A DNA stretch of 64,000 nucleotides from Escherichia coli (GTDB lineage Bacteria; Pseudomonadota; Gammaproteobacteria; Enterobacterales; Enterobacteriaceae), in the NCBI RefSeq assembly GCF_044324875.1, contig NZ_CP172185.1. One strand, given 5' to 3'. The notes under the pieces were generated by a model. That model did no database searches and was not told the DNA's origin. It saw nothing but the letters and a program-made list of their open reading frames with translations. Below are positions 62,395 through 63,778 of the stretch, piece after piece. The position numbers were made by a program, and so were the translations under genes. How positions within the stretch are numbered: the stretch's first letter is position 1; the number at the start of each line of letters is the position of its first letter.

Positions 62395-63051
62395 TTATAA
62401 ATCATTATCAATCAAACTCAGGAATGTATCTCTGGCATAATTACCAACGATGTTGGTTGTTATCGCATCAAGACTACCACCAACGATTCCTCCTACAACA
62501 GGAACAAACTTTGACATATTAATAACACCAGTAGCACCTGTTTTTGTAAGCAGTCTGAAACCGACTGCCTTATTTATCTTTACAATAATATCTTTACTAA
62601 TACATCTAATTGCATTTGTTGTCAACTTTTGTCCTATCTGAATTCCTGCTTCCTTCAAAATATCTTTCGCAGCATTACCTACAAGACAGGTATAAACAAT
62701 AGTTCTGACTTTATCATCACGAATATCCTGGCCACACATGATCGCAATAGATGCAACCATCCTGACCTGAATGAAAAGGACACTTGAAATATTGGTCGGT
62801 ATAGTTACTGGTAATGTAATAATTCCTCCAAGACCAGTAAGAAAACCTGATGTGGCTGACTTGGTATTTTGCCATCGAATAAGGCTATTTATCTGTTCTT
62901 TTAAACTACTACCCGTTTTCAGATAACTTTCCGCAAGACTATGTGCCGTATCAATTCCTGGGATACCAATACCATCGATGGATTTTTCATAAGCGTAATC
63001 CAGAAATTTTATGATTTTTGATGGCGTGAGAATATTTTCATTATCAGTCAT
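62395..63051 (-). CDS. EcsC-family protein (function unknown), ~218 aa
   Basis: C-terminal glycine-rich segment VPVVGGIVGGSLDAITTNIVGNYARDTF resembles the EcsC family as recalled; start set at ATG 63051 with AGGTG upstream; locus about 35% GC. Confidence 0.55.
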   Translation of the reverse strand: MTDNENILTPSKIIKFLDYAYEKSIDGIGIPGIDTAHSLAESYLKTGSSLKEQINSLIRWQNTKSATSGFLTGLGGIITLPVTIPTNISSVLFIQVRMVASIAIMCGQDIRDDKVRTIVYTCLVGNAAKDILKEAGIQIGQKLTTNAIRCISKDIIVKINKAVGFRLLTKTGATGVINMSKFVPVVGGIVGGSLDAITTNIVGNYARDTFLSLIDNDL

Positions 63052-63142
63052 ACAACAAAACACCTAAAAATTTCACGATCACTTTCTAAAAACTATCTCC
63101 GACAGATATCGGAACACCAGTATTATCACCAATTAAATAATA

Positions 63143-63334
63143 TTATTTTTTGAGAAACAATTGTATTGCTCTGGCAAAAAGATTTTCTGTAATTGTAGCC
63201 TTACGTTTATAAATAACTTTCTCTCCACACACAGGACATTCATAAAATCCTGCTGTACAATTCATATGAATAATAGTTTTACTCCATTGACAATTTGTAC
63301 AGATAAATGTAATGGGTGGACAGGGAAAAATCAT
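63143..63334 (-). CDS. small zinc-ribbon protein (CxxC ... CPVC), ~63 aa
   Basis: ORF MIFPCPPITFICTNCQWSKTIIHMNCTAGFYECPVCGEKVIYKRK; start ambiguous (GTG 63364 or ATG 63334); AT-rich. Confidence 0.45.
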   Translation of the reverse strand: MIFPCPPITFICTNCQWSKTIIHMNCTAGFYECPVCGEKVIYKRKATITENLFARAIQLFLKK

Positions 63335-63424
63335 TGGCTCACACTCTCGATATATAAATAACACTTACAGGGACATGTAAATATTTTCGATTTATCCCTA
63401 TAAAAATAACTTCACCTCCAGTAA

Positions 63425-63778
63425 TCAATTCAGTTCTGTAAGACGATCGATTATTTTACGTAGTTCATCTGCAGAATCACATGTATCCAGTGAAATTTTT
63501 ATTCTAAAATTCTTTAACCAATTAGCAGCCTCCTGATCTTCACGCCATAAACGCTCCCCGCTCCAATCCCCCCTAAAACATAGAGCAGCAATAGCCAATC
63601 CTCTGCATGCTGGCCGATTATGCTCAGATGTATTATTTTGGTTATAAAAATCGTTAATTCTTTCTACCGGAGATGATTTTATTTTATCCCACACATTGAA
63701 ATTAGCTTTTTTCATCGTTTCAGCAGCAGCATTAGAAGCAAGCTTACCGAATCCCATTATAGCATCCCAAAATCCCAT
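63425..63778 (-). CDS. hypothetical protein, 117 aa, no recognised domain
   Basis: ORF with ATG start and strong SD (AAGGTGA 6 nt upstream); first gene of a co-directional AT-rich three-gene cassette. Confidence 0.5.
   Translation of the reverse strand: MGFWDAIMGFGKLASNAAAETMKKANFNVWDKIKSSPVERINDFYNQNNTSEHNRPACRGLAIAALCFRGDWSGERLWREDQEAANWLKNFRIKISLDTCDSADELRKIIDRLTELN

What the first reader, a model, noticed from the sequence alone, without database searches (positions are those of the whole stretch)
62395..63778. AT-rich three-gene cassette of unknown function (117-aa unknown, 63-aa zinc ribbon, 218-aa EcsC-family)
Three co-directional minus-strand genes with about 90-bp spacers and about 35% GC, well below the roughly 50% of the surrounding core. 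The first has a strong SD; the last has the glycine-rich EcsC-type C-terminus; the middle one is a CxxC...CPVC zinc ribbon. I know of no characterised system with this gene combination, and the location in a mobile island next to IS scars fits a defence or stress module. This is the best candidate here for an undescribed system, but it rests on context only.
Basis: inference. Interest (0 to 1): 0.6.

Follow-up and report, generated by a model that had tools for sequence, protein, structure and literature searches.

The report
EcsC membrane gene with two small partners
The three AT-rich genes are real. The core is a very conserved, untested membrane protein already listed as a candidate anti-phage gene (PADLOC PDC-S29) that stands alone in every non-E. 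coli locus examined, while its two small partners are found only in E. coli.

Summary
Observation confirmed. Three co-directional minus-strand ORFs (218, 63 and 117 aa) have 90-91 nt spacers and 35% GC against 50% for the window. They lie in a 26.9-kb integrase-borne island that splits glnH from glnP.

All three are coding. They stay open through four or five E. coli sequence types (dS up to about 1-2), with dN/dS of 0.13-0.17 (EcsC), 0.18-0.22 (117 aa) and 0.24-0.42 (Zn ribbon).

The EcsC gene is not undescribed: it matches PADLOC's single-gene "phage defence candidate" PDC-S29 over its full length (E 6e-86). No test of PDC-S29 turned up in the papers I could search.

This short EcsC family has at least 2,200 sequence clusters and is about 60% identical across phyla. 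It has no conserved neighbour in 80 loci from other species, and it is the only credible gene on a 2.1-kb E. coli plasmid.

The 117-aa protein (TPR-like helical model) and the Zn ribbon have relatives only in E. coli material. Intact copies are always next to this EcsC lineage. In one lineage all three genes are decaying.

Best reading: an autonomous inner-membrane EcsC effector with two lineage-specific cytoplasmic accessory proteins. An anti-phage role is plausible but unproven; an envelope-stress role is a real rival. Moderate interest.

The parts
62395..63051 (-). Short-form EcsC-family protein, 218 aa (PADLOC PDC-S29). The likely core of the module: an all-alpha protein with a hydrophobic Gly/Pro-rich stretch (residues ~66-107) and a C-terminal GGxxGG helix.
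   Evidence: - Family assignment; Pfam PF12787 E 3.5e-11; PADLOC PDC-S29 E 6.4e-86, full length.
- Family size: 2238 homologues at E<=1e-5, the closest 120 listed being >=57% identical across phyla.
- Selection: dN/dS 0.13-0.17.
- Structure: AF2 pLDDT 82.8 / pTM 0.82.
- Hydrophobicity: KD19 maximum 1.93 at residues 88-106.
63052..63142 (-). 91-nt spacer with a terminator-like hairpin plus T-run at 63114-63097. It is probably not functional.
   Evidence: Found by the terminator scan. The stem is not kept in the T2 variant and the whole stretch is deleted in T3 (alignment). No Rfam match.
63143..63334 (-). 63-aa zinc-ribbon-type protein (CTNC...CPVC) with a conserved N-terminal PPxTFICxxCxWxKT motif and a hydrophobic/amphipathic C-terminal tail. 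Not annotated in RefSeq.
   Evidence: - ORF.
- Only 2 clusters among 5.8e9 proteins.
- The ORF is kept in all types despite 32% aa identity and unalignable flanks in T3.
- dN/dS 0.24-0.42.
- Only weak Rpo12/RpoP-type ribbon matches, E ~0.007.
63425..63778 (-). 117-aa cytoplasmic helical protein ('p117'). Its N-terminus MGFWDxxxGxGK is invariant and a strong SD precedes the gene. No family assignment.
   Evidence: - No Pfam hit even at E<=10. Nothing significant in NCBIfam, PADLOC or PHROGs.
- 10 clusters; every one that carries an organism name is E. coli, the rest are unnamed Logan/ENA contigs.
- dN/dS 0.18-0.22.
- AF2 pLDDT 83 / pTM 0.75, six helices.
63815..63904 (-). Relic of a second Zn-ribbon gene (MALPQPPVTFICTRCKWRKTIV..., first knuckle only, 29 codons). 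A pseudogene fragment.
   Evidence: tblastn gives 58% identity to residues 1-24 of the Zn ribbon. The copies in L090 and L098 carry in-frame stops.
63991..64000 (-). 3' end of a 249-aa outer-membrane beta-barrel gene (Adr/OmpW-like, WP_000734516.1) that runs off the window. It is the ancestral upstream neighbour of the cassette.
   Evidence: Annotation; NCBIfam Rick_Adr E 6e-27. It is reduced to a 45-codon stub in T2, with a shorter frameshifted remnant visible only in the DNA alignment in T3.
58736..59929 (+). P4-type tyrosine integrase of the island that carries the cassette (context, not part of the module).
   Evidence: The cassette lies near an integrase in every copy where enough flank is held, and those integrases are only 51-83% identical to each other.

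Best explanation
**What it is.** The cassette is cargo of a P4-integrase island.

**Core.** The core is an autonomous short-form EcsC-family protein (PADLOC candidate PDC-S29). It is most likely an inner-membrane-embedded helical protein whose glycine-zipper-like segments act on the membrane, by channel or pore formation or by gating.

**Accessory genes.** The two upstream genes are additions specific to this E. coli lineage. One is a small TPR-like helical protein; the other is a Zn-ribbon protein with a hydrophobic tail. They most likely bind and modulate EcsC, either sensing a trigger or restraining the protein. They are not obligatory parts of a universal three-gene system.

**Most likely role.** Exclusion or abortive response to phage or other invading DNA.

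**Shown here.**
- Gene reality.
- Purifying selection on all three genes.
- Linkage of the three genes within E. coli.
- Autonomy of EcsC outside E. coli.
- Family assignment.

**Inferred.**
- Membrane insertion (from hydrophobicity and motifs).
- Any interaction among the three proteins.
- The anti-phage role.
For: **Coding and linked in E. coli.**
- dN/dS is 0.13-0.42 for all three genes.
- The same order and orientation holds in types T1, T1b, T1c, T2 and T3.
- The copies sit at different chromosomal sites: glnH, ulaD, lptG, dsbD, tRNA-Phe/yqgA, tRNA-Sec and argR, plus one plasmid. Their integrases are 51-83% identical.

**EcsC is autonomous.**
- No homologue of either small gene appears in 80 loci from other species.
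- No neighbour cluster is shared by more than 5 of those 80 loci.
- None of the 80 has an upstream double-CxxC ORF.
- It is the sole credible ORF on the 2131-bp plasmid pE6474.4.
- It is solitary downstream of fis in Proteus/Morganella.

**Defence leads.**
- Full-length PDC-S29 match.
- The T2 copy abuts QatABCD.
- In the one Klebsiella plasmid examined, EcsC follows a PDC-S31 (DUF2971) gene and lies near a TacAT-like toxin-antitoxin pair. 180 Klebsiella plasmids carry an EcsC homologue, the listed ones nearly identical.
- An Old-family nuclease lies next door in Pantoea.
- EcsC-like genes are reported in predicted operons with the JukA sensor (bioRxiv 10.1101/2022.09.17.508391) and in a type III-E CRISPR locus, among genes predicted to be upregulated by CASP-sigma (PMC10028731).

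**Membrane character.**
- Hydrophobic stretch at residues 66-107.
- Invariant G/P/N/Q/R positions within it.

**Small genes not essential for tolerating EcsC.**
- p117 is frameshifted or cut by an IS while EcsC stays intact.
Against: - I found no experimental test of PDC-S29 or of any short EcsC protein.
- In a sample of 10 loci from other species, only 1 had a clear defence neighbour.
- Four Bacteroidales species keep the gene in conserved housekeeping synteny.
- About 60% identity across phyla is unusually high for a defence gene.
- The window copy and two sister islands sit among envelope genes (OMP, YebF-like, DolP-like, DoxX, sitABCD), not defence genes.
- The T3 lineage is decaying, which implies weak selection there.
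- The AF2 model draws the hydrophobic stretch as part of one long helix at only pLDDT ~62-66, so topology is unresolved.
- Nothing here demonstrates interaction among the three proteins.
Confidence: 0.5

Rival explanations
1. It is an obligate three-component system. The Zn ribbon and p117 act as sensor and adaptor and EcsC as effector, and none of the three works alone in E. coli.
For: - Order, orientation and short spacers are kept through dS ~1-2, and all three genes are under purifying selection.
- No intact p117 or Zn-ribbon gene was found away from this EcsC lineage.
- The N-terminal motif of p117 and the first knuckle of the ribbon are invariant.
Against: - EcsC is solitary in 80 of 80 loci from other species and on a one-gene plasmid.
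- In T3, EcsC stays intact when p117 is frameshifted or cut by an IS.
- In 10 of 11 T3 loci the ribbon has lost a Cys ligand, through two independent Cys-to-Tyr changes.
- The linkage could simply reflect shared position next to the integrase.
Confidence: 0.2
2. It is an envelope or membrane-stress fitness module with no link to phage. EcsC would be a membrane-homeostasis protein carried along with other envelope genes of the island.
For: - There is a conserved block EcsC-ribbon-p117-OMP-YebF-DolP in three islands, and OMP stubs show this neighbour is ancestral.
- T3 islands carry a phosphoethanolamine transferase, an MFS transporter, a GGDEF protein and LeoAB.
- The family shows housekeeping-like sequence conservation, and synteny is kept in Bacteroidales.
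- There are recurrent fusions to TerB/DjlA_N stress-type domains.
- The family namesake sits in the B. subtilis ecsABC operon (Pfam description, from general knowledge).
Against: - Distribution is patchy and mostly non-syntenic, for example in 11 Pseudomonas species.
- The gene is carried on 207 plasmids, including a 2.1-kb one.
- It is adjacent to Qat, Old and PDC-S31 genes in some loci.
- No ABC-transporter partner appears anywhere.
- The T2 cassette is kept after the envelope genes were lost.
Confidence: 0.22
3. It is a toxin-antitoxin or addiction module. EcsC would be a membrane toxin, neutralised by p117 and/or the Zn ribbon, that stabilises the island.
For: - Small upstream genes precede a membrane protein with glycine-zipper motifs.
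- The cassette sits next to the integrase in mobile islands.
- In E. coli 1303, the only T3 copy with an intact CPVC ribbon, EcsC is broken. This is a single case.
Against: - EcsC exists without either small gene in all other taxa examined and on plasmids.
- p117 is inactivated with EcsC intact in three loci (L008, L009, L104).
- The Cys-ligand mutants of the ribbon coexist with intact EcsC.
- There is no PADLOC, NCBIfam or Pfam toxin-antitoxin signature.
Confidence: 0.05

Closest known systems
PADLOC-DB v2 'phage defence candidate' PDC-S29 (single-gene candidate; HMM PDLC04988)
   Same: The window EcsC matches the model end to end: E 6.4e-86, residues 6-212 against model positions 10-214 of 220. 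So do the Klebsiella-plasmid and 2.1-kb-plasmid homologues. The family behaves as a single gene in other taxa.
   Different: PDC-S29 is only a candidate. I found no test of it: it appears once, in a PADLOC output table for S. thermophilus, and was not chosen for testing there. The E. coli lineage adds two small co-directional genes that are not part of the PADLOC definition.
EcsC of the Bacillus subtilis ecsABC operon (Pfam PF12787)
   Same: Significant Pfam match (E 3.5e-11) over the C-terminal two-thirds of the model. RefSeq names it 'EcsC family protein'.
   Different: Only model positions 82-235 of 240 are matched. No ecsA/ecsB-type ABC transporter genes are adjacent here or in any of 80 related loci. 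This short form of about 210 aa is a distinct, far more conserved subfamily.
Predicted JukA (YaaW)-EcsC-like operons, and the EcsC-like gene of a type III-E CRISPR (CASP) locus
   Same: In both, an EcsC-like membrane protein is placed as a putative downstream effector of an immune sensor (10.1101/2022.09.17.508391; PMC10028731).
   Different: p117 has no Pfam match at all, so it is not a recognisable YaaW/JukA. No CRISPR or sigma-factor genes are nearby. Neither paper tested the EcsC-like gene.
Small zinc-ribbon proteins (Rpo12/RpoP-type, FmdB CxxC_CxxC_SSSS)
   Same: Two CxxC knuckles about 17 residues apart, with weak profile matches at E 0.007-0.03.
   Different: All scores are far below the family cut-offs. 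The N-terminal PPxTFIC motif and the hydrophobic C-terminal tail are specific to this protein. Only two sequence clusters are known.

Membership tests
Pfam EcsC (PF12787) | Significant match to the family HMM | tested here: met
   E 3.5e-11, score 43.7, residues 49-210 against model 82-235/240. All 28 fusion relatives scanned also match.
Pfam EcsC (PF12787), in the sense of B. subtilis ecsABC | Encoded with the EcsA/EcsB ABC transporter | tested here: not met
   There are no ABC transporter genes next to the gene in the window or its sister islands. No conserved neighbour appears in 80 loci.
PADLOC PDC-S29 | Full-length match to HMM PDLC04988 | tested here: met
   E 6.4e-86, 285 bits, residues 6-212 against model positions 10-214 of 220.
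PADLOC PDC-S29 | Functions as a single gene, with no obligatory partner | tested here: met
   This holds for the family. There are no shared neighbours in 80 loci, and it is the only credible ORF on a 2131-bp plasmid. Whether the E. coli copy needs its two partners is not testable here.
Anti-phage defence system (any) | Experimentally shown protection against phage | not testable with these tools
   None of the literature searches found a test of PDC-S29 or of a short EcsC protein.
Anti-phage defence system (any) | Enrichment next to known defence genes | tested here: inconclusive
   For: QatABCD beside the T2 copy; PDC-S31 and a TacAT-like toxin-antitoxin pair nearby on the Klebsiella plasmid examined; an Old-family nuclease in Pantoea. 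Against: 9 of 10 sampled loci from other species had no PADLOC-positive immediate neighbour other than a tandem EcsC paralogue and one weak PDC-M40B hit (E 1.4e-8) in L063, and the window copy lies among envelope genes.
Zinc ribbon | Two Cys knuckles (CxxC ... CxxC) | tested here: met
   C12xxC15 and C33xxC36 are present in T1, T1b, T1c and T2. In T3 only E. coli 1303 keeps all four Cys; the others have YPVC or CPVY. Zinc binding itself is not testable here.
Toxin-antitoxin module | The toxin gene is always accompanied by its antitoxin gene | tested here: not met
   EcsC lacks both small genes in all 80 loci from other species and on plasmids. p117 is inactivated beside an intact EcsC.
Juk system (JukA/YaaW sensor plus effector) | An adjacent JukA/YaaW-family gene | tested here: not met
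   p117 has no Pfam match even at E<=10. Neither p117 nor the Zn ribbon has any PADLOC match.

The most novel reading that the evidence does not exclude
The short-form EcsC family would be a widespread single-protein anti-phage or anti-plasmid effector with a fold that has no solved relative. It would act by glycine-zipper-mediated membrane permeabilisation. In E. coli it would have recruited a Zn-ribbon/TPR-like pair that gates it in response to infection, giving a natural 'sensor add-on' that shows how a stand-alone effector becomes a multi-gene system.
Probability: 0.2. Interest if true: 0.6.

Novelty: new variant of a known kind. Interest (0 to 1): 0.35.

Why it matters
If EcsC/PDC-S29 proves to be a defence or exclusion effector, three things follow.
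- It would give a function to a protein family with more than 2,000 sequence clusters, extreme conservation (about 60% identity between Proteobacteria, Firmicutes and Bacteroidota) and no structural relative.
- The E. coli cassette offers a ready comparison, EcsC alone versus EcsC with its two small partners, for asking how accessory sensors or regulators are added to a stand-alone effector.
- It would also explain why about 180 Klebsiella plasmids (the one examined is IncFIB/IncHI1B) and a one-gene mini-plasmid carry the gene.

If EcsC turns out to be an envelope-stress protein instead, a PADLOC candidate would need re-labelling.

Tried and rejected
**Family searches for the small genes.** Pfam, NCBIfam, PHROGs and PADLOC gave nothing usable for p117. 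For the ribbon they gave only generic weak zinc-ribbon hits.

**Structure comparisons.**
- Foldseek against AFDB50 returned only EcsC-family proteins and their fusions.
- Sequence and profile searches of the PDB were empty or insignificant.

**Is p117 a diverged EcsC fragment?** hhalign of p117 against EcsC gave probability 0.7%, so no.

**Domain fusions of EcsC relatives.** Partners were heterogeneous: TerB, an AAA_21/SMC-type ATPase, a kinase, GNAT. Several may be gene-calling artefacts, so there is no consistent functional pointer.

**Regulatory and RNA elements.**
- Promoter and terminator scans were at background level. The one hairpin between the ribbon and EcsC is not conserved.
- Rfam found no match.

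**Toxin-antitoxin idea.** Rejected; see the rival explanations.

**Ribbon-versus-EcsC antagonism in T3.** I asked whether 'ribbon intact means EcsC broken' reflects antagonism. It rests on a single genome (E. coli 1303), and the whole T3 lineage is decaying, so I do not lean on it.

**Wasted search.** One literature search was swamped by unrelated 'ECSC' acronyms.
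Full report
**1.

On the minus strand the window carries three ORFs:
- EcsC, 62395-63051, 218 aa from the ATG.
- A zinc-ribbon protein, 63143-63334, 63 aa.
- A 117-aa protein ("p117"), 63425-63778.

The spacers are 91 and 90 nt. GC is 35.2% for the cassette against 50.4% for the window and 51.1% for the core before the island. p117 is preceded by TAAGGTGAT, a strong Shine-Dalgarno. The 218-aa protein matches Pfam EcsC (E 3.5e-11). The 63-aa protein has C12xxC15 and C33PVC36.

RefSeq annotates the first and third genes (WP_000131421.1, WP_000508154.1) but not the ribbon. 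ISAs1 and IS630 fragments lie just downstream of EcsC.

**2. Where it sits**

The window is E. coli chromosome, 100% identical to strain ECCNB12-2. The cassette belongs to a 26.9-kb element inserted between glnH and glnP.
- At one end is a P4-type integrase, followed by a TPR protein.
- At the other end is the usual CP4-type module: GTPase, DUF932, antirestriction, RadC, YeeU/CbtA.
- Upstream of p117 lie a decayed fragment of a second ribbon gene (63815-63904, with stops in sister copies) and a 249-aa outer-membrane barrel gene that runs off the window.
- Beyond that are YebF-like, DolP-like, DoxX and sitABCD genes.

**3. The three ORFs are genes**

Homologous cassettes exist in several E. coli sequence types:

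| Type | Source | Site or context |
|---|---|---|
| T1 | window | glnH |
| T1b | L090, 95% identical | island after ulaD |
| T1c | L098, second copy in the same genome | lptG |
| T2 | L002-L005 | dsbD, yqgA/speC, argR; QatABCD beside the L005 copy |
| T3 | L006-L009, L095, L099-L106 | tRNA-Phe, tRNA-Sec, one plasmid |

Nei-Gojobori estimates between types:

| Gene | dN/dS | Highest dS |
|---|---|---|
| EcsC | 0.13-0.17 | 0.77 |
| p117 | 0.18-0.22 | 1.15 |
| Zn ribbon | 0.24-0.42 | about 2 |

The ribbon ORF is kept in T3 even though its protein is only 32% identical and the flanking spacers no longer align. In DNA of this composition a 63-codon open frame has a chance probability of 0.006.

**4. 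Do the three genes belong together?**

Within E. coli, yes as a linkage group. The order and orientation are the same in every type, and the cassettes sit beside integrases that are only 51-83% identical to each other.

Beyond E. coli, no.
- p117 has 10 clusters among 5.8 billion proteins. Every one that carries an organism name is E. coli; the rest are unnamed Logan/ENA contigs. The ribbon has 2 clusters.
- EcsC has 2,238 relatives at E<=1e-5. The closest 120 listed are at least 57% identical to it, and the aligned sample spans Proteobacteria, Firmicutes and Bacteroidota. A profile search finds 2,144 clusters at the 50% identity level.
- A pattern scan of one genome per species found it in 327 stretches.
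- Among the 80 best loci, none encodes a relative of p117 or the ribbon. None has an upstream co-directional double-CxxC ORF. No neighbour family is shared by more than five loci.
- A 2,131-bp E. coli plasmid carries a 63%-identical EcsC as its only credible gene.
- The closest homologue outside E. coli (Proteus/Morganella, 67%) is solitary in a variable region downstream of fis.
- In the one Klebsiella plasmid examined, the upstream neighbour is a DUF2971 protein, itself PADLOC PDC-S31. 180 Klebsiella plasmids carry an EcsC homologue, the listed ones nearly identical.

So EcsC is an autonomous gene, and the two small genes are lineage-specific additions.

**5. The small genes are dispensable for carrying EcsC**

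In T3:
- p117 is frameshifted (L008/L009) or cut by ISEc8 (RM8082) while EcsC stays intact.
- The ribbon has lost a Cys ligand through two independent Cys-to-Tyr changes (YPVC, CPVY) in every copy except E. coli 1303.
- EcsC itself is broken in four of eight complete T3 genomes: a stop in 1303, a frameshift in C5, and IS66 insertions in AL.H8 and A30.

This argues against an antitoxin role for the small genes. It also shows that the T3 lineage is decaying. The only p117 relatives found without EcsC are frameshifted copies on short contigs, three of them ColE1-like plasmids.

**6. What the proteins look like**

*EcsC.*
- The AF2 model (97-sequence alignment) is all-alpha: pLDDT 82.8, pTM 0.82.
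- Residues 66-107 (TSGFLTGLGGIITLPVTIPTNISSVLFIQVRMVASIAIMCG) reach Kyte-Doolittle 1.9. They contain invariant G, P, N, Q and R positions. The C-terminal helix carries a GGxxGG motif. From this I infer a membrane-embedded hairpin with glycine-zipper packing.
- The model's confidence is lowest exactly there, so the topology is not settled.

*p117.* The model has six helices (pLDDT 83, from only six sequences), with weak TPR/Sel1-like matches. The N-terminus MGFWDxxxGxGK is invariant.

*Zn ribbon.* It gives only generic Rpo12-type matches and ends in a hydrophobic/amphipathic tail.

Neither small protein has a TM segment by Kyte-Doolittle, and neither sequence shows an obvious signal peptide.

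**7. Comparison with what is known**

The EcsC gene matches PADLOC's single-gene "phage defence candidate" PDC-S29 end to end (E 6.4e-86). The literature I could search holds no test of it. It appears once, in a PADLOC table for S. thermophilus, and was not selected for testing there.

EcsC-like genes are mentioned as predicted partners of the JukA sensor. One also lies in a type III-E CRISPR locus, among genes predicted to be upregulated by CASP-sigma. Neither was tested. There is no ecsAB transporter here, so the B. subtilis operon context does not apply.

**8. Defence or envelope?**

The evidence is mixed.

For defence:
- The PADLOC listing.
- QatABCD beside T2.
- PDC-S31 and a TacAT-like pair on the Klebsiella plasmid examined.
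- An Old-family nuclease in Pantoea.
- Carriage on plasmids and a mostly non-syntenic distribution.

Against defence, or for an envelope role:
- Only 1 of 10 sampled loci from other species had a defence neighbour.
- Synteny is conserved in Bacteroidales.
- The sequence conservation is very high.
- The T1 islands keep EcsC-ribbon-p117-OMP-YebF-DolP as a block.
- T3 islands carry a phosphoethanolamine transferase, an MFS transporter, a GGDEF protein and LeoAB.

**9. Verdict**

This is a real, acquired three-gene cassette. Its core is a catalogued but uncharacterised candidate gene. The "system" is a lineage-specific elaboration rather than a conserved three-family system.

My most likely mechanism is a membrane-acting EcsC effector modulated by two cytoplasmic partners, probably in exclusion of phage or foreign DNA. 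The gene-level facts are shown here; the mechanism is inferred.

The cassette is rare: T1/T1b occur in 16 and T3 in 8 of 5,426 complete E. coli genomes.

Noticed in passing
window 58519-64000 and beyond (L001, L111): The 26.9-kb integrase island is inserted between glnH and glnP, so it separates glnH from glnPQ in the glutamine ABC transporter operon. Sister islands with related integrases sit after ulaD (inside the ula operon) and next to lptG, not at tRNA genes.
   Followed up: partly
L098 (NZ_CP033635.1 4336774-4340710): The genome identical to the window carries a second copy of the whole block dolP-yebF-OMP-p117-ribbon-EcsC-integrase next to lptG. Protein identities to the window copy are 97-98% for p117 and EcsC and 81% for the ribbon.
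   Followed up: partly
L096 (plasmid pE6474.4, NZ_CP116985.1, 2131 bp): This mini-plasmid's only credible ORF is a 224-aa EcsC/PDC-S29 gene, 63% identical to the window protein. It is a natural 'single-gene' construct.
   Followed up: partly
L097 (pKCTC2242); 180 Klebsiella plasmids: On the one Klebsiella plasmid examined (IncFIB/IncHI1B), EcsC (PDC-S29) lies 26 nt downstream of a DUF2971 protein that is PADLOC PDC-S31, near a DUF1778-GNAT (TacAT-like) pair. Two separate 'single-gene candidates' may really be one operon there.
   Followed up: partly
T3 loci L095, L099-L106, L007-L009: There are two independent Cys-to-Tyr substitutions in the second zinc knuckle (YPVC and CPVY). The only copy with all four Cys (E. 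coli 1303) has a nonsense codon in EcsC. EcsC is also hit by IS66 twice and by a frameshift once. The lineage is decaying; whether the ribbon/EcsC pattern means antagonism cannot be judged from one genome.
   Followed up: partly
L091-L094 (Logan contigs): Frameshifted p117 homologues (50-70% identical) occur without the ribbon or EcsC on short contigs. Three of these are about 2-kb ColE1-like plasmids with Rop and NikA-like genes.
   Followed up: partly
window 60295-61350 (+): A 351-aa TPR protein lies between the integrase and the cassette. It recurs at 68% identity in the T3 islands, between an AraC regulator and a GGDEF protein. It has no PADLOC match.
   Followed up: partly
window 63143-63334; L001 locus_tags: RefSeq/PGAP does not annotate the 63-aa zinc-ribbon gene in any of the E. 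coli genomes examined except E. coli 1303. The locus_tag series skips a number at that spot (RS18775, RS18785).
   Followed up: yes
L063 5177-5956 and 6001-6609 (Christiangramia portivictoriae): A 259-aa distant EcsC paralogue lies directly upstream of the short-form EcsC gene, giving a tandem pair (PDC-S29 E 3e-8).
   Followed up: no
AFDB50 hit A0A7S0WGE0: A protein from the green alga Pyramimonas obovata (341 aa, 33% identity, TM-score 0.86 normalised to the query) shares the EcsC fold, so the family may reach eukaryotes or their organelles.
   Followed up: no
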